Below, piece by piece: positions 9,200-24,954 of a stretch of 24,954 nucleotides of DNA. The DNA lies in NCBI GenBank assembly GCA_964617935.1, contig CAZTWM010000001.1, positions 1 to 24,954 on the forward strand. The letters are read 5' to 3'. This stretch comes from an uncultured Thermoplasmatales archaeon (GTDB lineage: Archaea; Thermoplasmatota; E2; UBA202; JdFR-43). How positions within the stretch are numbered: position 1 is the stretch's first letter; each line of letters starts with the position of its first letter. The notes under the pieces were generated by a model, which was not told the DNA's origin, did no database searches, and worked only from the letters and a program-made list of their open reading frames with translations. A program made the translations under genes and the position numbers.

Positions 9200-11503
9200 A
9201 TGAAATATATTTCGCTTATAATCGCCTTCATTTTTGTTTTTAATACCCTGTATATCACGGGAAATGCCAATAACATAATAGTGGTAAATGGCGGGAGCAT
9301 ACAGGATGCCATAAATGCTGCCAGTGATGGAGACATCATCTACATCATGGAAGGAAAATATCATGAAAGGGTAATTGTAAACAGGAGTGTAACCATAATT
9401 GGCAAGGGAAAAGTTATTATCGATGGCTATGGAAGCACTGCCATGGACATCAAAAAAAGTGGGGTGACACTGGAGAATCTTGCCCTCACAAATTCAAGTG
9501 ATGCCATTATTAAAACTGAAGAAAAAAATGTAAGAATAAGGGAATGTGAAATATATGGTGGAAGATATGGGATTGTTTCATCATATGCCATAATTGAAGA
9601 ATGCATTTTCCATGAATGTGGAAGAGGGGTTTTACTTTACAGAGGAAATTTAGTTTATAATTCCACATTCAAAAAATGTGGATTGGGTATGGAGATAAGG
9701 GGAAAAGAAAATGTGGTGGATGGATGCAATATTCATACCTGCGGCGTTGGAATATATATGGAAAATTCGGAGTCAAATTTAATTACATCATGCTGGGTGC
9801 ACAAAAATAACAATAACGAAGGAGATATATTTCTGCTAAATTCATCAAAAAATTCCATTATGGACTGCAATATAAGTTATGGAAGTTTTGGAATAAGATT
9901 GGTGGAAAGCAATGAGAATACCATCAAAAATAATAATATCTACAGGAGCAGATACGGAATAAAAATGGAGAAATGCAGTGGAAACAGGGTGGAGGGATGT
10001 AAAATAGACTCCAACAGGTTTGGCATCACAGTGGAGAGATGCAGAAATATAAAGATACAATATAACTGGATAGTTGGAAGCCACATGTATTCCATGGATG
10101 CGAGATATTCCATGGTGGATGCGAGATATAACTGGTGGGGAAGCCTGATACCTCACAAACTCCATTTTATATTCAGCAGAGTAAAAATTTTCCCGTGGTA
10201 TATTTATTCTCCCCATTTTAAAGGAAGTGAAAAATCAGATGATTTAAAGGGAAATAGGGAAAGAGAGGTTGTGCCTGCATCTTCATCGAGGAATGAAAAA
10301 ATCGTTTGCAATGACTTTGACCCATTGGTGGACATAAAGATTGGTTTCAGAATAAAGAGGATGAGGGGTATGTGGGGGAGCGGTGAACATTCATTGAATG
10401 TTTACATTGATGGAAAAGGAAATGGAACAACATTTGAAGGAGATTCATCGCCTTTCATCACTTTCTGGCAAAATGTTGATGATTCTGAGCAGAAGATATC
10501 CATAATCATTGATGTGGATGATGAAAATGCATTTCTCACCTATGACATATCAAGGGGGGAATGGTGTGGCGATGATTATTTAAAGGATGGGGATGGCTAT
10601 GGACATTTGAAGTTTAAAAATGCAGAGATATGGTTTGATGTAATATACAATGATTATGACAATGATGGCTTAACCTATTGGGAGGAAGTGCATGTATATG
10701 GCACAGACCCCACGAAAAGCGATTATGGAAAGGATTATGATAATGACGGCATTCCCATTGAATGGGAGGATAAGTATGGCTATAATCCCTTCGAGCCGGA
10801 AAATCACTCCATGGATTATGATAACGACGGCTTAAATGATTACGAGGAATATTACATGGAAGGAATGCTGGCAGACCCCTTTGCTAAAGACATCTTCATA
10901 GAAGTAGATTACATGCCCGGATATGAAATGTATGAAGAGAGCATTCAAATGCTCTATGACGCCTTTGCCAGACATAACATAACAATGCATATTGATGTGG
11001 ATGAGAAACTGCCCTATATGGAAAGAGTGTATTATGGTGATGCTGTGGATTTTTACTGGGACTATTTTCTTCATGGAGATGTTAATAATCCGAGACATGG
11101 AATATTTCATTATCTCATCCTTGTTTCATATGGCTCTTCAAAAAGAGGGGGACATGTTTTCGTTGGTATGGATAACTGCGATTCCATCCTGCTGGCATGC
11201 CAGTATATAAATGACTGGCGTGTTGGGGATGCGAGAAAGGTGGCATATGCCAGTCTCTTCATGCATGAACTTGGTCATAGCCTGGGGATATTCGATGATA
11301 CTTTTGGAGGAGTGGATAATGAAAGTTGCAATAATCCATGGCATAAGGGATACTGGATTTATGCCAATTACAAAAGTTGCATGAACTACAGATATGCTTT
11401 CCAGCAACTGGATTATTCTGATGGAAATCATGGAAGGAATGACTTTGACGACTGGGATAATATAGATTTAGCGTTCTTCAAAGATTCCTACTACTATCCC
11501 TGA
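9200..11503 (+). CDS. Secreted multidomain protein: parallel beta-helix (NosD/CASH-like) + Ca-binding DxDxDG repeats + metzincin-like zinc metallopeptidase
   Basis: Signal peptide; SIQDAINAASDGDIIYI.EGKYHE beta-helix cap followed by Asn/Cys-ladder repeats and DARYNWWG; three DYDNDG repeats; DPFAKDIFIEVDYM; HELGHSLGIFD zinc motif; SCMNY Met-turn. Confidence 0.85.
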   Translation: MKYISLIIAFIFVFNTLYITGNANNIIVVNGGSIQDAINAASDGDIIYIMEGKYHERVIVNRSVTIIGKGKVIIDGYGSTAMDIKKSGVTLENLALTNSSDAIIKTEEKNVRIRECEIYGGRYGIVSSYAIIEECIFHECGRGVLLYRGNLVYNSTFKKCGLGMEIRGKENVVDGCNIHTCGVGIYMENSESNLITSCWVHKNNNNEGDIFLLNSSKNSIMDCNISYGSFGIRLVESNENTIKNNNIYRSRYGIKMEKCSGNRVEGCKIDSNRFGITVERCRNIKIQYNWIVGSHMYSMDARYSMVDARYNWWGSLIPHKLHFIFSRVKIFPWYIYSPHFKGSEKSDDLKGNREREVVPASSSRNEKIVCNDFDPLVDIKIGFRIKRMRGMWGSGEHSLNVYIDGKGNGTTFEGDSSPFITFWQNVDDSEQKISIIIDVDDENAFLTYDISRGEWCGDDYLKDGDGYGHLKFKNAEIWFDVIYNDYDNDGLTYWEEVHVYGTDPTKSDYGKDYDNDGIPIEWEDKYGYNPFEPENHSMDYDNDGLNDYEEYYMEGMLADPFAKDIFIEVDYMPGYEMYEESIQMLYDAFARHNITMHIDVDEKLPYMERVYYGDAVDFYWDYFLHGDVNNPRHGIFHYLILVSYGSSKRGGHVFVGMDNCDSILLACQYINDWRVGDARKVAYASLFMHELGHSLGIFDDTFGGVDNESCNNPWHKGYWIYANYKSCMNYRYAFQQLDYSDGNHGRNDFDDWDNIDLAFFKDSYYYP
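10652..10831 (+). repeat. Three coding DYDNDG repeats at exact 81-nt (27-aa) spacing
   Basis: GATTATGA(C/T)AA(T/C)GA(T/C)GGC starts at 10652, 10733 and 10814. Confidence 0.85.
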
Positions 11504-21150: not shown

Positions 21151-21508
21151 GGTGGCACAACTAACGTTTCTCGCAGGCATAATAATGCTTCTCCTTGCCC
21201 TTATTACAGGAGAGGGTAAAGGAGGTATCTTTATCATATTTCCCTTTTTTTATGGCTCGGGAATTTTCAGTATGGCGGGCATGCTCTTAATTTTCCTCTC
21301 TCTTGCCCTCTTCATTTTTTCTTTTCCCGAGAGAATGCTAAAGGAAAATGACATTCCAGAAATGGAAAAAGAAAGGAGAGCAGGGGGAATAATATTCATA
21401 GGTCCTATACCCATAATTTTTTCCACCGATGAAAGCATGGGAAAAACACTTGTTATAATATCAATGTTGATAATTCTCTTTCTTTTAATCTTCCTCCTGC
21501 TTTATTAA
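21140..21508 (+). CDS. DUF131/TIGR00304-family membrane protein
   Basis: GGIFIIFPFF and GGIIFIGPIPIIFSTD motifs, TM helices; overlaps the uppS stop. Confidence 0.8.
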   Translation: MGSRVAQLTFLAGIIMLLLALITGEGKGGIFIIFPFFYGSGIFSMAGMLLIFLSLALFIFSFPERMLKENDIPEMEKERRAGGIIFIGPIPIIFSTDESMGKTLVIISMLIILFLLIFLLLY

Positions 21509-22221
21509 GCAACCCTTCCCATCCTGAATGCTCCAGTAAGTCTTATTTCCTCTCCCTCAAGCAGATAATCAATCCAGTGACGGGATATGACCTCTCCACA
21601 TCCCTGAACACGTAATTGAAACCTCGCCCCTTCTTCCTTCATTTCTATAACTCCGTCCATGAGATGCTTTATTGTCTGCACCTCTATTTCCTCATGCATT
21701 CCTCTTGTCATGCTGAACATGGAAGTGGCGTTGCTTCTTTTGCACATCCCGCTGAGAACCTGCAGAAATCTGAATACAGCCTTTGCATCAGAATAAACAA
21801 TAAGGGTGGAAAGAGAATCAAAAATGATTCTGTATTTTGTTTCTTCCTTCTTGATTATTTGAATTATGGACGATGCTATTCTCTCCCTGTTTATGGGACT
21901 GTCCACAAATGTCGCCCATTCACTCTCCTCCTGCAGTTCCACACTGGGCGAATAAACATCTATATACCTTATTTTCCCATCCCTTTCATATTCCTCATAT
22001 TTTTTATCCAGTTTCAGCATCTCTTCCTTCATATCTTTAAATGATTTATCTGTAAGAATAAAAACCACATTTTCTCCTTCCTGCAATCCAGAAAGAGCAA
22101 AACGCTTGAGTATTATCTCCTTTCCTATAAAAGGCGGGGAATAAACCAGAACATTGCTTTTCAAAGGTATCCCACCTTTCAGAAGTTCATCCAGCCTCTC
22201 AATTCCTGTTTTAGCCAGCAT
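21505..22221 (-). CDS. KaiC/RAD55-like RecA-fold protein, degenerate ATPase motifs
   Basis: KTGIERLDELLKGGIP N-terminal signature; Walker A region SPPFIGKE; IDVYS; Walker B IIFDSLSTL; HLMDGVIEM. Confidence 0.85.
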   Translation of the reverse strand: MLAKTGIERLDELLKGGIPLKSNVLVYSPPFIGKEIILKRFALSGLQEGENVVFILTDKSFKDMKEEMLKLDKKYEEYERDGKIRYIDVYSPSVELQEESEWATFVDSPINRERIASSIIQIIKKEETKYRIIFDSLSTLIVYSDAKAVFRFLQVLSGMCKRSNATSMFSMTRGMHEEIEVQTIKHLMDGVIEMKEEGARFQLRVQGCGEVISRHWIDYLLEGEEIRLTGAFRMGRVA

Positions 22222-23365
22222 TTAAACACTCCAGAATTTTTTCCACCATTCTTTCAAATGCCTCATATACACCCCTTCTTTCTGTTGCAACCGTTTCCAC
22301 CACCTCCATATCCATGCCAAATCTTGCCTTTATTTCCTCCCTTCTCAGCGCGCCCGGCATGTCCTGCTTGTTGGCAACAATTACGCATGGCACACCAGAA
22401 AATTTTTCCAGCATTTTTTTAGCAAACTCAAATTCATTTGGCTTGGTGGAATCCACAACCAGAAATACCCCCATGGAGGAGGCGCCGAGTTTATCAAGTA
22501 ATGGAAGAAATCTTTCCTGCCCCGGTATGCCGAAAATCTCTGCCCTGTATCCCTTATAATCGGCGGTGGCATGTTCCACGCCAACGGTTGCCCCCATCCT
22601 TTCTATGGGAGTAAAACTCTTGGATATGGATTTTATAAAGGTTGTTTTTCCCGCCTGAAAAGGACCGATAACACTTATTTTTGGAATATATATACGGACT
22701 CCATCAGGTTTGAAAATTTTGAAATCGATTTTCTTGCCCTCATTTTCGTTCCAGTCAATTTTTTTGATTTCCATCCTCTGTCTTACACCAACATCCTCAA
22801 CCATGCTCACCTCAATTATTGCATTGAATAATCTCTTTATCATGTAAAGCAATGCTTCTTTATAGGGCCATGAAATGAAGTTGTAGATGGTGGCAAATCC
22901 TGCCGAGCCAGCGTCCTTGTTTATCCTTTCTATACCTTCAAGCGCATCTCTCTCTCCACACATATCAAGGAGGTTGGAAAGAGAATCAAATACTATTATT
23001 CCTCCTCCATTCTTTTCAATTATTTCCAGAATAACATCTTCATAACTCCTTATATCATGGGGTTCTTCCACCACATATTTTTCTTGGGTTGGAGCGCCCA
23101 CCAGAGAGGAATAGCCGTCTACCACTGTAAGATTGTCATATCTCTTCCTATCCCAGTTGAATTCGCTGAATTTTCTTTCCACATTCTTTGGAGAACTTTC
23201 AGATACTACATATATTCCCTTCCTTCCCATTTCAAGATTATGATGAAGAATATGTATGGCGATATCACTCTCCTCAACACCAGGCTCAATGCGGAAAACA
23301 ATGGACTTTCCGGGAGGTATACCTCCCAGATATTCATCCAGTTTTGGTATACCAGTTTCAATCAT
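22211..23365 (-). CDS. Fusion of degenerate KaiC/RAD55-like domain (about aa 1-225) and MglA-like small GTPase (about aa 228-384)
   Basis: N-terminal half: ETGIPKLDEYLGGIPPG, VDGYS, IVFDSLS. C-terminal half: GPFQAGKTT (G1), ATV (G2), FGIPGQERF (G3), ANKQD (G4), TVAT (G5). Confidence 0.9.
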   Translation of the reverse strand: MIETGIPKLDEYLGGIPPGKSIVFRIEPGVEESDIAIHILHHNLEMGRKGIYVVSESSPKNVERKFSEFNWDRKRYDNLTVVDGYSSLVGAPTQEKYVVEEPHDIRSYEDVILEIIEKNGGGIIVFDSLSNLLDMCGERDALEGIERINKDAGSAGFATIYNFISWPYKEALLYMIKRLFNAIIEVSMVEDVGVRQRMEIKKIDWNENEGKKIDFKIFKPDGVRIYIPKISVIGPFQAGKTTFIKSISKSFTPIERMGATVGVEHATADYKGYRAEIFGIPGQERFLPLLDKLGASSMGVFLVVDSTKPNEFEFAKKMLEKFSGVPCVIVANKQDMPGALRREEIKARFGMDMEVVETVATERRGVYEAFERMVEKILECLNAG

Positions 23366-23724
23366 TTTTTCTCCCGCAATACTTTCTCCACCCTCTTTGC
23401 ACCCTCTGCCAGCACATCATCCAGCTTACCAACGTCTCCTTTTGTTACAAGTGCTAAAAGAGCGAAAGGACCTGCCCCCATTGCTATTATCTTCCTCCCC
23501 TTCCCTTCCACAATGACTCTTTTTGGCACACCCCCGCCCACTTCATCCATCGCCACTTCAGCAGAACTGAGAAGGGTTGCAAGCATGGCGGCAAATGCCT
23601 CAGCATGAATTTCCTGCATATCGGAATATATCAGGAGCCCATCTCTTGAAACTATACATCCCCCCTCAACATCCCTTCCCGATTTCATATCAGTCAATAT
23701 CTTTTTGTATATATCCTCCTTCAT
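23362..23724 (-). CDS. Roadblock/LC7 domain protein (MglB-like)
   Basis: 120 aa; IVSRDGLLI, AAMLATLLSSAE, VIVEG...IIAMGAG..ALLALVT. The stop has an ATGA overlap with the GTPase fusion start. Confidence 0.9.
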   Translation of the reverse strand: MKEDIYKKILTDMKSGRDVEGGCIVSRDGLLIYSDMQEIHAEAFAAMLATLLSSAEVAMDEVGGGVPKRVIVEGKGRKIIAMGAGPFALLALVTKGDVGKLDDVLAEGAKRVEKVLREKK

Positions 23725-23748: not shown

Positions 23749-23762
23749 TAATAAAACTTTCT
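23749..23762 (-). promoter_or_regulatory. BRE-TATA promoter of the Roadblock-KaiC/GTPase-KaiC operon
   Basis: The minus strand reads AGAAAG-TTTTATTA, with the TATA box ending 25 nt before ATG 23724; consistent with a leaderless transcript. Confidence 0.6.
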
Positions 23763-23832
23763 AAAAATTTATTTCGATGCTCTCGCCATTCAACTTTCAT
23801 TTTCTTCATGTATCAATTATTCATGCCCTGTA

Positions 23833-24723
23833 TTATTCTTCCTTCCTTGATATGTAATAAATTCCCCCTGCCAGAGATAATATGCCCAAAATCTGGAATG
23901 AGGTTATATTTTCATGCAGAATAAGGAAACCCAGCACAGCGGCGAAAAAGGGGGCAGAGAGTTCCATGGCGGAAACCTGTGCTGCCTTCAGGCGGCGCAA
24001 TCCTTCATAATAGAGGATTGTTCCAGTGCCGACTATGAAGCCAGTCATGATTTGGTAAATATTTGATATAATAAAGGCTGAGGTGGAAACAGTGTATATG
24101 AGAAATAAAAGGGAGGAGATGAAGAAGCGGTAGAATGCTGTTACCCCTCCATCAATGGAATGGAGATATTTTCTTGCCACCAGTGCTGTTGTTGCCCATG
24201 ATATGGTGGCAATGAGAACCATGGCATCTCCTGTTGTGCCTATGCGGAAGGACAATAGATTTTCAGGGGTTTTTGTTGTCACCATTATGCCCGAGAGAAT
24301 CATGAAAAATATTCCTCCATAGTCATAGGAGGTGAGTTTCTCTCTCAGAATAATAAAACCGAGGAGGATTATGAAGATGGGTTGCATATGCCCTATTATA
24401 ACGGCATTCACCACCGGAATTCTGGAGATGGCATAGAAATATAACAGGTCTGCAAATATTGTGCCCATGATGGCAATATAGATTATGGGAGGAAGATATC
24501 TTCTTTCCAGTTTCAGTTTTTTGTTTCTTACTGCCACATAAAAAAAGGCGATGACACAGGCAAAAACAGCCCTTACTGCCGATGTATGTAAAAAATCTGA
24601 ATTCTCATAGGCAATTTTTGCCGCCACAGGCTCCATAGCCCACATTACACTAGCAAAAAGTATGCACAAAATGCCGAGATTTTTACGATTTTTTAATATA
24701 CTATTCCACGATGAAGTTTTCAT
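23833..24723 (-). CDS. EamA/DMT family transporter (two-repeat)
   Basis: About 10 TM helices with two EamA repeats (QPIFIILLGFIILREKL; APFFAAVLGFLILHENI). The start is uncertain (ATG 24723 or GTG 24738); both overlap the upstream gene. Confidence 0.88.
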   Translation of the reverse strand: MKTSSWNSILKNRKNLGILCILFASVMWAMEPVAAKIAYENSDFLHTSAVRAVFACVIAFFYVAVRNKKLKLERRYLPPIIYIAIMGTIFADLLYFYAISRIPVVNAVIIGHMQPIFIILLGFIILREKLTSYDYGGIFFMILSGIMVTTKTPENLLSFRIGTTGDAMVLIATISWATTALVARKYLHSIDGGVTAFYRFFISSLLFLIYTVSTSAFIISNIYQIMTGFIVGTGTILYYEGLRRLKAAQVSAMELSAPFFAAVLGFLILHENITSFQILGILSLAGGIYYISRKEE

Positions 24724-24954
24724 CCAGTTTGTTATCACTTGCCAGTAAAAATTCCTTGCTCATGTGTAAGGCATCGACAGGACACACATCATTGCACTGG
24801 CTGCAGAATATGCATCTCCCTATATATATCCTTATCTTCTTTTCCTCCTCTTTGAACTCTATGGCTTTTGCAGGACATACCTTTATGCACATTCTGCACC
24901 CTATGCATTTTTCTCTGTCATATGTTATTTTACCTCTGAAATCTTCAGGCACTT
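24701..24954 (-). CDS. 2x[4Fe-4S] NuoI-like subunit (MbhN/MbxN-type) of a complex I-related membrane oxidoreductase, 5' truncated
   Basis: PEDFRGKITYDREKCIGCRMCIKVCP ... RCIFCSQCNDVCP: two CxxCxxCxxxCP motifs with the NuoI-type FRG prefix. Confidence 0.85.
   Translation of the reverse strand, partial: VPEDFRGKITYDREKCIGCRMCIKVCPAKAIEFKEEEKKIRIYIGRCIFCSQCNDVCPVDALHMSKEFLLASDNKLDENFIVE

What the first reader, a model, noticed from the sequence alone, without database searches (positions are those of the whole stretch)
21505..23724. Candidate signalling system: Roadblock (MglB-like) + KaiC-like::small GTPase fusion + second KaiC-like protein
Seen in sequence: three co-oriented genes behind one BRE-TATA promoter, with 4-nt and 11-nt overlaps indicating translational coupling. 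The GTPase domain has G1 GPFQAGKTT, G3 FGIPGQERF and G4 NKQD. The Gly in place of the DxxG Asp is typical of the MglA/CvnD-like group that pairs with Roadblock proteins. Established: MglA-MglB is a GTPase-GAP polarity switch in Myxococcus, Roadblock domains partner Rag GTPases in eukaryotes, and KaiC-like ATPases have been proposed as archaeal signal-transduction hubs. Inference: the two KaiC-fold domains hetero-oligomerise into a ring or scaffold that displays the GTPase, and the Roadblock dimer acts as GAP or sensor. That would be a three-component switch wiring a RecA-fold hub to a Ras-like GTPase. No sensor or output gene is in the operon, so targets act in trans. Such fusions may be recorded in comparative surveys, but I know of no experimental characterisation.
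Basis: partly seen in the sequence, partly recalled or inferred. Interest (0 to 1): 0.8.

Follow-up and report, generated by a model that had tools for sequence, protein, structure and literature searches.

The report
Archaeal GTPase switch on dead-KaiC scaffold
Three tightly packed genes encode a Ras-like GTPase welded to an inactivated KaiC-type domain, its Roadblock regulator and a second inactivated KaiC-type protein; this uncharacterised module is conserved across nearly all archaeal phyla and in some lineages sits inside type IV pilus operons.

Summary
On the minus strand lie Roadblock (23362-23724), a KaiC-like::small-GTPase fusion (22211-23365) and a second KaiC-like protein (21505-22221). 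They overlap by 4 and 11 nt and follow a 17-nt BRE/TATA-like element that is invariant in nine relatives. The GTPase has the G[T/I]PGQ G3 motif of MglA groups 2-5, and the Roadblock has the matching DG pair.

Two corrections. Both KaiC-fold units are degenerate: the fusion has E-E-S where Walker A needs G-K-T, and the partner has G-K-E and lacks the catalytic Glu pair. They are scaffolds rather than ATPases. The module is also not local. The fusion occurs in Thermoplasmatota, Halobacteriota, Methanobacteriota, Archaeoglobi, DPANN, TACK and Asgard MAGs. Roadblock is adjacent in 179 of 213 loci and a KaiC-like partner lies within 3 kb in 182, in several gene orders.

The window has no sensor or output gene. 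Relatives place the module in operons with PilB3-like ATPase, PilC-like and pilin genes, CheY-like receivers or V4R proteins.

Best reading: an MglA/MglB-type switch rigidly mounted on an ArlH-like pseudo-ATPase adaptor. It possibly controls a pilus motor. I found no experimental study, and the key survey (Makarova 2017) was not readable.

The parts
23749..23765 (-). Conserved BRE/TATA-like promoter element TTTAGAAAGTTTTATTA. The TATA part ends 24 nt upstream of the Robl ATG, so the transcript is leaderless or has a very short leader.
   Evidence: Invariant in 9 Thermoplasmata loci with diverged flanks (A8). Coordinates verified. Promoter function is inferred, not tested.
23362..23724 (-). Roadblock/LC7 (MglB-like) protein, 120 aa, with the conserved R27-D28-G29 motif (23638-23646).
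   Evidence: PF03259 E 3e-14. Best solved relatives are archaeal Roadblock proteins 7f8m and 9jue, plus CvnB5 3leq. The RDG motif is conserved in both clades. The DG pair is the MglB signature paired with MglA groups 2-5 (PMC4316618).
22685..23365 (-). Fusion protein, N-terminal KaiC/ArlH-fold pseudo-ATPase domain (residues 1-227). The Walker-A-equivalent IEPGVEES lies at 23267-23290. The family-specific motif YNFISWPY lies at 22862-22885.
   Evidence: PF06745 E 2e-15. Aligned to PH0284, G-K-T corresponds to E31-E32-S33. No GK[ST] in any of about 80 relatives, nor in 35 of 36 distant cluster representatives. Foldseek best hit 2dr3, TM 0.83 normalised by target length.
22679..22690 (-). Domain junction Y-I-P-K (residues 226-229). 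P228 and K229 are invariant across the whole family, and one predicted beta-strand (222-233) runs through the boundary.
   Evidence: Invariant columns in A1, A2 and A4. AF2 model pLDDT 92.2, pTM 0.88, strand E222-233.
22214..22684 (-). Fusion protein, C-terminal MglA-like small GTPase domain (residues 228-384). G1 at 22640-22666, switch I RMGAT at 22586-22600, G3 FGIPGQERF at 22508-22534, G4 NKQD at 22361-22372.
   Evidence: Arf E 4e-15, Ras E 1e-10, TIGR00231 45.4 bits against a cutoff of 42.5. Motifs conserved. Switch I is the only low-confidence segment of the model. The nearest unfused relatives are bacterial standalone MglA-like proteins.
21505..22221 (-). Second KaiC/ArlH-fold protein ('K2', 238 aa) with a degenerate nucleotide site. 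Walker-A-equivalent SPPFIGKE at 22117-22140, Walker-B-like IIFDSLS at 21808-21828, and a conserved, predicted-disordered C-terminal tail TGAFRMGRVA at 21508-21537.
   Evidence: PF06745 E 8e-30; also DUF7090, DUF7504 and PAXNEB/Elp4. Below the FlaH and ArlH cutoffs. Aligned to PH0284, G-K-T corresponds to G-K-E and the catalytic E-E to D-K. AF2 pLDDT 91; Foldseek hits PH0284, KaiC CI, Sso2452 and FlaH. It is the most conserved of the three proteins, at 67-87% identity in Thermoplasmata.

Best explanation
The operon encodes an archaeal MglA/MglB-type GTPase switch built onto a nucleotide-dead RecA-fold scaffold.

Shown:
- The GTPase domain is intact: G1, G2 Thr, G3 with catalytic Gln, and NKQD.
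- It is of the MglA 'GTPGQ' type.
- It is always encoded beside a Roadblock protein that carries the MglB 'DG' signature.
- It is joined through an invariant YIPK junction to a KaiC/ArlH-fold domain that has lost its P-loop Gly-Lys.
- A paralogous KaiC/ArlH-fold protein with a crippled site (GKE) nearly always accompanies it.

Inferred:
- The Roadblock dimer binds the GTPase across its switch regions and sets its GTP/GDP state, as a GAP and perhaps also a GEF, as MglB does.
- The two pseudo-ATPase units pair or oligomerise with each other through the usual RecA-fold interfaces, with no ATP turnover. Together they form an adaptor whose conformation or partner affinity follows the nucleotide state of the rigidly attached GTPase.
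- The adaptor docks on a partner machine in the way ArlH docks on the ArlI motor ATPase.
- In Thermoplasmatota the most likely partner is a PilB3/PilC-type type IV pilus assembly motor. Inputs come from CheY-like receivers or, in other phyla, V4R ligand-binding proteins.
- In the window's organism the partner genes are elsewhere in the genome.
For: Domain and motif evidence.

MglA/MglB signature: G3 GTPGQ and the MglB DG pair (PMC4316618).

Conserved module in several gene orders:
- Robl-fusion-K2 in 30 of 30 Thermoplasmata loci.
- K2-fusion-Robl in 46 of 50 Methanoperedens, ANME-2 and related loci.
- In 76 phylogenetically wide loci, Robl is adjacent in 65 and K2 lies within 3 kb in 61.
- In a third set of 57 loci the figures are 38 and 41.

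Translational coupling: the overlaps are conserved.

Rigid two-domain model: pTM 0.88, with a strand crossing the junction.

RecA-fold parts: the closest solved structure is PH0284, whose PDB entry holds six chains. KaiC CI and FlaH/ArlH also match.

T4P linkage in three different arrangements:
- T2SSE-T2SSF-T2SSF-Robl-fusion-K2 in 9 loci, with annotated examples L083 and L085.
- Robl-fusion-K2-T2SSE-T2SSF in L092 and L109.
- RR-Robl-fusion-K2-Pilin_N with 1-4 nt overlaps in L101 and 11 others.

Unfused bacterial relatives of the GTPase sit next to Robl and T2SSE ATPases in Actinomycetes.

Precedents:
- ArlH hexamer binds ArlI (bioRxiv 10.1101/2021.03.19.436134).
- KaiC-family and Roadblock genes were noted in archaeal T4P loci (PMC4858521).
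- MglA activates T4P in Myxococcus (PMC7668184, title and abstract).
Against: - No protein-protein interaction was tested or modelled. No multimer prediction was available.
- The window and its closest relatives (L003-L012, L087) have no T4P, receiver or V4R gene nearby.
- Only about 14% of all loci show T4P genes within 4 kb.
- Other lineages show quite different neighbours: YhbY-S19e in Methanosarcinales, TPR protein plus further KaiC paralogues, not checked for intact catalytic motifs, in Methanobacteriaceae. The output may therefore differ between lineages.
- K2 keeps the P-loop Lys and, in Thermoplasmata, the Walker B Asp, so nucleotide binding cannot be excluded.
- Eight of 31 Thermoplasmata-type members lack the G3 Gln, so GTP hydrolysis is not universally required.
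Confidence: 0.6

Rival explanations
1. K2 is still a working KaiC/ArlH-like nucleotide-binding, autophosphorylating protein. The module would then be a KaiC-type phospho-timer or hub whose state is read out by the fused GTPase, closer to the first reader's 'ATPase hub'.
For: K2 retains the P-loop Gly-Lys (GKE) in almost all members and the Walker B Asp in Thermoplasmata. ArlH itself binds ATP and autophosphorylates. K2 is the most conserved component. Methanobacteriaceae loci carry extra KaiC paralogues (PF06745 E 2e-30 and 3e-27).
Against: The Mg-coordinating Ser/Thr of Walker A is an invariant acidic residue. The first Walker A Gly is lost in Thermoplasmata. The catalytic Glu pair is D-K or R-E. 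Walker B Asp is Asn in the Methanoperedens-type clade. The fusion's own KaiC-like domain has no P-loop Lys at all.
Confidence: 0.2
2. The module acts on translation or ribosome biogenesis rather than on a surface machine.
For: In Methanoperedenaceae and ANME-2 the Robl gene overlaps a YhbY/CRS1-like RNA-binding gene by 4 nt and is followed by S19e and a PDCD5-like gene. TruD lies upstream in ANME-2.
Against: This neighbourhood is confined to one order (Methanosarcinales) and may be inherited synteny. It is absent from Thermoplasmatota, DPANN, TACK and Asgard loci. The GTPase is MglA/Arf-like, not a TRAFAC ribosome-assembly GTPase.
Confidence: 0.08
3. The three proteins work independently, and the clustering is historical accident or a generic gene neighbourhood.
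For: No direct interaction data exist.
Against: Adjacency survives gene-order permutation and about 25-30% sequence identity across archaeal superphyla. Stop/start overlaps are conserved.
Confidence: 0.03
4. It is an anti-virus defence or mobile-element module.
For: P-loop NTPase combinations are common in defence islands.
Against: There are no PADLOC matches except a marginal LeoA P-loop hit at E 0.003. The context is housekeeping: gyrase, HisRS, UPP synthase and a hydrogenase cluster. Distribution is pan-archaeal with lineage-congruent similarity.
Confidence: 0.02

Closest known systems
MglA-MglB GTPase/GAP polarity switch (Myxococcus xanthus, Thermus thermophilus); MglA groups 2-5 of Wuichet & Sogaard-Andersen 2014, including archaeal group 4 and CvnD/CvnB of the actinobacterial conservon
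   Same: A small GTPase with a non-Asp G3 (G-T/I-P-G-Q), encoded beside a Roadblock protein that carries the DG pair. In Myxococcus the switch controls type IV pili, and here relatives sit in T4P operons.
   Different: The GTPase is not a stand-alone ~190-aa protein. It is rigidly fused to a 227-aa KaiC-fold domain and accompanied by a second KaiC-fold protein. There is no CvnA kinase or CvnC (DUF742). That survey was built around single-domain GTPases and reported no conserved neighbours for archaeal group 4.
ArlH (FlaH), the KaiC-like ATP-binding subunit of the archaellum motor that binds the ArlI ATPase as a hexamer
   Same: A single-domain KaiC/RecA fold of about 230 aa (Foldseek hit 4yds; NCBIfam FlaH E 4e-18). 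Some relatives are encoded next to an ArlI/PilB-family ATPase and ArlJ/PilC-family membrane proteins.
   Different: Scores are far below the ArlH and FlaH family cutoffs (39.5 against 215; 65.8 against 194). Walker A Thr is Glu and the catalytic Glu is lost. The associated ATPase is PilB3-like, not ArlI of an archaellum cluster.
Inactivated KaiC-like ('iKaiC') domains and KaiC-family signalling hubs proposed for archaea (Makarova, Galperin & Koonin 2017, mBio; cited in PMC5847659)
   Same: KaiC-superfamily domains with degenerate ATPase motifs, combined with signalling domains. Pfam relatives are DUF835, MEDS, DUF7090, DUF7504 and DUF7125.
   Different: I could not read the 2017 paper, so I cannot say whether this exact iKaiC::GTPase + Roadblock + iKaiC module is described there. 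Nothing in the searchable library mentions it.
Elongator Elp4/5/6 hetero-hexameric RecA-fold ring
   Same: This is a precedent for paralogous RecA-fold subunits assembling into a hetero-oligomeric ring. K2 hits the Elp4 family PAXNEB at E 6e-13 and weakly hits Iki1/Elp5.
   Different: Elp4/5/6 is eukaryotic, acts on tRNA, and has no GTPase or Roadblock partner. The similarity is at superfamily level only.
Rag GTPase-Ragulator (GTPase plus Roadblock-domain scaffolds) of eukaryotes and Asgard Rag-like GTPase::Roadblock fusions (PMC10933270)
   Same: A small GTPase is regulated or scaffolded by Roadblock-fold dimers. The module is present in Asgard MAGs (Freyarchaeota, Jordarchaeia).
   Different: The GTPase is fused to a RecA-fold domain, not to a Roadblock or longin domain, and Roadblock is a separate single-domain protein.

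Membership tests
MglA family small GTPase (groups 2-5, Wuichet 2014) | G3 motif lacks the canonical Asp and reads G-T-P-G-Q | tested here: met
   The window has FGIPGQERF. Relatives have FG[IT]PGQERF, and G279 is invariant in A1 and A2 and nearly invariant (at least 90%) in A4; motif counts. Definition from PMC4316618.
MglA family small GTPase (groups 2-5, Wuichet 2014) | Thr rather than an intrinsic Arg finger immediately before the G2 Thr | tested here: met
   Switch I is R-[LM]-G-[AT]-T. The window has A259-T260 and most relatives have T-T. There is no Arg at the position before the G2 Thr.
MglA family small GTPase (groups 2-5, Wuichet 2014) | Genomic coupling to an MglB/Roadblock gene | tested here: met
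   Robl is adjacent on the same strand in 76 of 80, 65 of 76 and 38 of 57 loci.
MglA family small GTPase (groups 2-5, Wuichet 2014) | Single-domain protein of roughly 160-200 aa | tested here: not met
   384 aa, with a 227-aa KaiC-fold domain N-terminal to the GTPase.
MglA family small GTPase (groups 2-5, Wuichet 2014) | GTP binding and MglB-stimulated hydrolysis | not testable with these tools
   Needs biochemistry.
MglB / Roadblock-LC7 | Robl_LC7 domain above the Pfam gathering score | tested here: met
   52.9 bits against a cutoff of 23.
MglB / Roadblock-LC7 | Conserved Asp-Gly pair of MglBs coupled to group 2-5 MglAs | tested here: met
   R27-D28-G29 in the window. The RDG motif is conserved in almost all of the aligned Robl sequences from the first set of loci; one of the variants listed has REG.
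KaiC-family ATPase (active) | Walker A GxxxxGK[ST] | tested here: not met
   The fusion has P-G-V-E-E-S and K2 has P-P-F-I-G-K-E.
KaiC-family ATPase (active) | Catalytic Glu (pair) after strand beta2, and Walker B Asp | tested here: not met
   The Glu pair aligns to E-S (variable) in the fusion and D-K in K2. Walker B Asp is present in Thermoplasmata but is Gly/Cys (fusion) or Asn (K2) in the other clade.
KaiC-family ATPase (active) | KaiC/RecA fold | tested here: met
   PF06745 hits. Foldseek TM 0.79-0.84 to PH0284, Sso2452 and KaiC CI.
ArlH/FlaH | Score above the NCBIfam equivalog or subfamily cutoff | tested here: not met
   K2 scores 39.5 on ArlH NF052589 (cutoff 215) and 65.8 on FlaH PRK06067 (cutoff 194).
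ArlH/FlaH | Encoded in an archaellum (arl) cluster with ArlI and ArlJ | tested here: not met
   No arl or T4P genes in the window or its 38.8-kb contig. Some relatives neighbour PilB3-like T2SSE and T2SSF genes instead.
Actinobacterial conservon (CvnA-D) | Four-gene set with a CvnA histidine kinase and CvnC (DUF742) | tested here: not met
   Neither is present in the window.

The most novel reading that the evidence does not exclude
The iKaiC::MglA-like GTPase + Roadblock + iKaiC module is an ancient signalling device that pre-dates the split of the major archaeal lineages. It couples a Ras-superfamily switch to hexameric secretion/pilus ATPases through ArlH-like pseudo-ATPase adaptors. On this reading it would be the archaeal counterpart, and possibly a forerunner, of MglA/MglB control of type IV pili, and an early example of Roadblock-regulated GTPases on an oligomeric scaffold, as in Rag-Ragulator. 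It is also present in Asgard archaea.
Probability: 0.25. Interest if true: 0.8.

Novelty: new variant of a known kind. Interest (0 to 1): 0.62.

Why it matters
- Little is known experimentally about small GTPase signalling in archaea. Wuichet & Sogaard-Andersen 2014 note that most prokaryotic small GTPases are uncharacterised, and I found no study of an archaeal MglA/MglB-type pair (the archaeal gap itself is my own reading).
- This module is one of the most widely distributed GTPase-plus-regulator sets in the domain. It forms 84 clusters at 50% identity and occurs in Euryarchaeota, DPANN, TACK and Asgard.
- It gives a concrete, testable three-protein system.
- It offers a case study in how dead P-loop domains are reused as scaffolds.
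- In some lineages it provides a direct genomic lead to the poorly understood regulation of archaeal type IV pili.
- It also bears on how GTPase-Roadblock pairing evolved before eukaryotes.

Tried and rejected
- Makarova et al. 2017 (mBio; DOI and PMC5717392) could not be read. Whether the module is already catalogued there stays open.
- Literature searches for KaiC with Roadblock, GTPase or MglA terms found no description of the fusion. The supplements of the 2016 T4P survey are truncated and gave nothing on arCOG02603.
- A single-protein locus search found only two close relatives. A 13-sequence alignment was too divergent to seed a scan. Smaller alignments worked.
- Defence-system reading: rejected.
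- T4P genes in the window or its longer contig: none.
- The model coordinates are not exposed, so I could not inspect the domain interface or the nucleotide pockets.
- Foldseek on the whole fusion is dominated by the RecA-fold half, so structural placement of the GTPase half relative to MglA versus Arf was not obtained. Sequence hits favour Arf/Arl among solved structures, while motif criteria and the nearest unfused relatives favour MglA.
Full report
**1. The observation**

The window carries three co-oriented minus-strand ORFs at exactly the reported coordinates.
- Roadblock protein: 120 aa, 23362-23724.
- Fusion protein: 384 aa, 22211-23365.
- Second KaiC-like protein ('K2'): 238 aa, 21505-22221.

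The Robl stop and fusion start share ATGA. The fusion stop and K2 start share ATGCTGGCTAA, an 11-nt overlap.

Pfam gives:
- Robl_LC7, E 3e-14.
- In the fusion, KaiC (PF06745) over residues 2-227 at E 2e-15, followed by Arf/Ras over 229-378 at E 4e-15 / 1e-10.
- In K2, KaiC at E 8e-30, plus DUF7090, DUF7504 and PAXNEB/Elp4.

The quoted G motifs are present: G1 GPFQAGKTT (234-242), G3 FGIPGQERF (278-286), G4 NKQD (332-335).

The claimed BRE-TATA promoter cannot be scored with the sigma-70 tool. An alignment of the region upstream of Robl from nine Thermoplasmata relatives shows a 17-nt block, TTTAGAAAG[T/A]TTTATTA, that is invariant while the flanks are unalignable. In the window it lies at 23749-23765, and its TATA part ends 24 nt before the ATG. 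That spacing fits a leaderless or near-leaderless archaeal transcript. The spacing argument is inference; the conservation is observed.

**2.

I aligned both units residue by residue to the archaeal KaiC-like ATPases PH0284 and PH0186.
- In the fusion, the Walker A G-P-G-T-G-K-T corresponds to E-P-G-V-E-E-S. Gly-Lys-Thr has become Glu-Glu-Ser.
- In K2 it corresponds to P-P-F-I-G-K-E. Lys is kept, but the Mg-coordinating Thr is Glu and the first Gly is lost.
- The catalytic Glu-Glu pair aligns to E-S in the fusion, and that position varies in relatives. In K2 it aligns to D-K.

Across about 80 related loci:
- No fusion protein has GK[ST] in the KaiC-like half.
- K2 reads PFIG[KR][ED] or GPPMSGKE.
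- The Walker B Asp is retained only in the Thermoplasmata-type clade. In the Methanoperedens-type clade it is Gly/Cys in the fusion and Asn in K2.

Among 36 representatives down to 22% identity, 35 lack the P-loop Lys in the N-domain.

These are what Galperin et al. 2018 (PMC5847659) call 'iKaiC', inactivated KaiC-like domains, citing Makarova et al. 2017.

The fold itself is intact.
- AlphaFold2 models are confident. The fusion has pLDDT 92.2 and pTM 0.88. K2 has pLDDT 91.0 and pTM 0.90.
- Both RecA-fold parts superpose best on PH0284 (2dr3, six chains in the entry) at TM about 0.83.
- K2 then matches KaiC CI, Sso2452 and FlaH/ArlH. The fusion's N-domain then matches full-length KaiC, Sso2452 and PH0186.

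**3. The GTPase and its Roadblock are of the MglA/MglB type**

Wuichet & Sogaard-Andersen 2014 (PMC4316618) define the family as follows.
- MglA groups 2-5 share a GTPGQ G3 motif in place of DxxGQ.
- They have Thr in place of the group-1 intrinsic Arg finger.
- They include the almost exclusively archaeal group 4 and CvnD.
- Their coupled MglB proteins share an Asp-Gly pair.

Here G3 is FG[IT]PGQERF, and the Gly is invariant among close relatives and nearly so across the wider family.

Switch I (residues 256-260) is the only low-confidence stretch of the model, as expected for a mobile switch.

The nearest unfused relatives of the GTPase half are stand-alone bacterial proteins from Herpetosiphon, Anaerolineae, Actinomycetes, Persephonella and Truepera. 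These phyla are among those listed for MglA groups 2 and 5. Many of them sit beside Robl.

The protein fails one MglA criterion: it is not a single-domain GTPase. The 2014 survey was framed around single-domain Ras-superfamily GTPases, and it reported no conserved neighbours for group 4.

The junction Y-I-P-K has P228 and K229 invariant across the whole family. It lies inside one predicted beta-strand (222-233) that crosses from one domain into the other. Together with pTM 0.88, this argues for rigid coupling rather than a flexible tether.

**4. The trio is a conserved, very widespread module**

*Family size.*
- The fusion has 973 homologues in the 90% clustered database.
- It has 84 clusters at 50% identity with E <= 1e-30, nearly all 370-415 aa long and matching residues 1-379.

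*Phyletic spread.* Three scans of one-genome-per-species contigs found it in:
- Thermoplasmatota, including Methanomassiliicoccales.
- Halobacteriales, Methanosarcinales (Methanoperedens, ANME-2) and Methanocellales, including the cultured Methanocella sp. MCL-LM.
- Methanomicrobiales, Methanobacteriaceae, Archaeoglobaceae and Hydrothermarchaeota.
- Altiarchaeota.
- DPANN: Woese-, Micr-, Aenigmat- and Nano-archaeota, and a nanohaloarchaeon.
- TACK: Bathyarchaeia, Hecatellales, Nitrososphaerota and Thermoproteota.
- Asgard: Freyarchaeota and Jordarchaeia.

*Gene order*.
- All 30 Thermoplasmata loci have Robl-fusion-K2 with the same overlaps as the window.
- 46 of 50 Methanoperedens, ANME-2 and related loci have the permuted order K2-fusion-Robl.
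- Three Methanocellales loci and one other lack an adjacent Robl.

*Co-occurrence, by HMM scan of ORFs*.

| Locus set | Loci with full-length fusion | Robl adjacent, same strand | K2-like within 3 kb |
|---|---|---|---|
| 1 | 80 | 76 | 80 |
| 2 | 76 | 65 | 61 |
| 3 | 57 | 38 | 41 |

The K2 count in set 3 is an undercount, because some K2-like ORFs scored better against the fusion model. The three sets also share a few contigs.

Linkage that survives order permutation and 25-30% identity is strong evidence that the three products work together.

K2 is the slowest-evolving of the three within Thermoplasmata. It is 67-87% identical, against 49-81% for the fusion and 42-68% for Robl.

**5. Context: no partner genes here, but informative ones elsewhere**

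In the window and its 38.8-kb parent contig the neighbours are an Mrp/Mbh-type hydrogenase cluster, a ferredoxin, an EamA transporter, a DUF131 membrane protein, UPP synthase, carbamate kinase, HisRS and gyrase.

Relatives tell more.

(i) Nine Thermoplasmata loci spanning 49-66% identity carry, directly upstream and co-oriented, a PilB3-like T2SSE ATPase and two T2SSF (PilC/ArlJ-like) genes. Independent gene calls and Pfam labels on L083 and L085 confirm this, with 70-83 nt between the last T2SSF gene and Robl.

(ii) In a second Thermoplasmatota clade the same genes lie downstream of K2 (L092, L109) or nearby on the other strand (L091).

(iii) In twelve Thermoplasmatota or Halobacteriales loci, K2 is followed by a 589-aa archaeal type IV pilin (Pilin_N) gene. 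Nine of them also carry a DUF7289 protein gene. A CheY-like receiver often sits just upstream of Robl, with a PAS histidine kinase nearby. In L101 the genes RR, Robl, fusion, K2 and pilin overlap or abut by 1-4 nt.

(iv) Two further uncultured archaea (L183, L185) have fusion, Robl, a KaiC-like gene and T2SSE on one strand, with a T2SSF gene next to them on the opposite strand. Actinomycete stand-alone relatives have Robl, GTPase and T2SSE.

(v) A V4R-domain protein follows or precedes Robl in Archaeoglobaceae, Bathyarchaeia, Hecatellales, Woesearchaeota and some Thermoplasmata.

(vi) In Methanoperedenaceae and ANME-2, Robl overlaps a YhbY-like gene and is followed by S19e and a PDCD5-like gene.

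(vii) Methanobacteriaceae add further KaiC paralogues and a TPR protein.

Overall, 29 of 213 loci have T4P genes within 4 kb. This is a minority, but they occur in at least three distinct arrangements, which is hard to ascribe to inherited synteny alone.

Makarova, Koonin & Albers 2016 (PMC4858521) had already noted KaiC-family proteins and Roadblock proteins (arCOG02603) in archaeal T4P loci, without mentioning a GTPase.

**6. Mechanism**

*Shown:* the domain composition, the intact GTPase motifs, the dead or crippled RecA-fold sites, the rigid predicted two-domain architecture, and the conserved linkage of the three genes.

*Inferred from established family behaviour:*
- Roadblock acts as a dimer on the switch face of the GTPase and sets its nucleotide state, as MglB does (PMC4316618 and PMC11016934, listed).
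- The two RecA-fold units associate through the canonical inter-subunit interfaces. The nearest solved relatives crystallise as multimers. ArlH is a hexamer on ArlI (bioRxiv 10.1101/2021.03.19.436134). Elp4/5/6 shows that paralogous RecA-fold subunits can form hetero-rings.
- Without ATP turnover, the assembly serves as an adaptor whose output follows the GTPase state.

*More speculative:*
- The adaptor docks on a PilB/ArlI-family hexamer, as ArlH does.
- The acidic residues that replace the P-loop Gly-Lys in the fusion mimic bound phosphate at a subunit interface.

I put 0.6 on the core model, meaning a switch plus regulator plus pseudo-ATPase scaffold acting as a complex. I put about 0.3 on a T4P motor being the target in this particular organism.

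*Rivals:*
- K2 is still a nucleotide-binding or autophosphorylating KaiC-like protein: 0.2.
- A translation-linked role: 0.08.
- No functional unit: 0.03.
- Defence system: 0.02. PADLOC was negative.

**7. Comparison and novelty**

The system works like MglA/MglB and, for its RecA-fold half, plausibly like ArlH.
- It is not a member of the single-domain MglA family, because it fails the architecture criterion.
- It is not an active KaiC ATPase, because Walker A and the catalytic Glu criteria fail.
- It is not ArlH/FlaH, because scores are far below cutoff.
- It is not the conservon, because CvnA and CvnC are absent.

It is best described as a new variant of a known kind: an MglA/MglB-type switch fused to and partnered with iKaiC domains.

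I found no experimental or descriptive paper on it in the searchable library. The one survey most likely to list it, Makarova et al. 2017, was not available, so prior cataloguing cannot be excluded.

**8. Verdict**

Interest is 0.62. A specialist would not be astonished by a GTPase beside Roadblock. The pan-archaeal spread, the rigid fusion to a dead KaiC fold, the obligatory second dead KaiC and the recurrent tie to pilus motors make it a worthwhile and directly testable system.

Noticed in passing
window 23749-23765 (minus strand); L003, L005, L006, L009-L013 upstream of Robl: A 17-nt element, TTTAGAAAG[T/A]TTTATTA, is invariant across loci whose proteins are only 58-68% (Robl) identical and whose flanks do not align. 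That is more conservation than a generic TATA box needs, so it may also hold a regulator site.
   Followed up: partly
L089 8856-10011 (JGI contig 3300005098 Ga0072683_105421): On a contig that carries the identical K2 protein, the fusion gene is called as two ORFs: a 168-aa KaiC-like ORF and a 197-aa GTPase ORF. This is either a frameshift or assembly error, or a naturally split variant.
   Followed up: no
window 21508-21537 (K2 residues 229-238); alignment A3: The K2 C-terminal tail TGAFRMGRVA is predicted disordered (residues 234-238 have pLDDT < 50), yet it is invariant in Thermoplasmata. It is recognisable as TGxFxxGR in the consensus of a 41-sequence K2 alignment whose members go down to about 30% identity. 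It may be a docking peptide. It is absent from the Methanoperedens-type K2.
   Followed up: partly
Related loci L013-L032 (fusion G3 motif): Eight of 31 Thermoplasmata-type fusion proteins lack the catalytic Gln (FGIPSHERF, FGIPGREGF, FGIPSYERF, FGLPGLERF, FGIPGHERF). Some lineages may carry hydrolysis-deficient, locked versions.
   Followed up: no
Protein P0367 (alignment A4): One distant family member shows the reverse degeneracy. It has an intact Walker A (GDPGSGKS) in the KaiC-like half but a deletion that removes G2-G3 of the GTPase half.
   Followed up: no
L035-L082 (Methanoperedens, ANME-2), e.g. L035 5535-6728: Robl overlaps a YhbY/CRS1-like RNA-binding gene by 4 nt and is followed by ribosomal protein S19e and a PDCD5-like dsDNA-binding protein. 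In ANME-2, TruD lies upstream. This is either a translation-related link or order-level synteny.
   Followed up: partly
L202-L207, L218, L222, L226 ('Methanobacteriota EA' and Thermoplasmatota MAGs): Downstream of fusion-Robl-Robl lie further ORFs of 240 aa and 535-705 aa that also match the fusion HMM. This suggests larger clusters with several GTPase or iKaiC paralogues.
   Followed up: no
L227, L230, L232, L244, L247 (Actinomycetes); L228, L229, L231, L233, L235, L243 (Anaerolineae/Chloroflexi): Stand-alone bacterial relatives of the GTPase domain lie next to one or two T2SSE (PilB/PilT-like) ATPases and a long Robl-containing protein in Actinomycetes. In Anaerolineae they lie directly after a 250-aa receiver-domain protein.
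   Followed up: no
window 9200-11503 (+); L083 418-2798; L003 upstream: Large NosD/right-handed beta-helix proteins, probably surface proteins, recur near the module. Two lie about 2.4 kb upstream of the T4P-Robl-fusion-K2 cluster in L083, separated from it by four other genes, and one lies 10 kb away in the window.
   Followed up: no
L087 1-7521 (beyond the window's high-coordinate end): The parent contig continues into a 14-gene Mrp/Mbh-type membrane-bound [NiFe] hydrogenase/antiporter cluster. It ends with the ferredoxin whose 5' part is the last ORF of the window (24701-24952).
   Followed up: no
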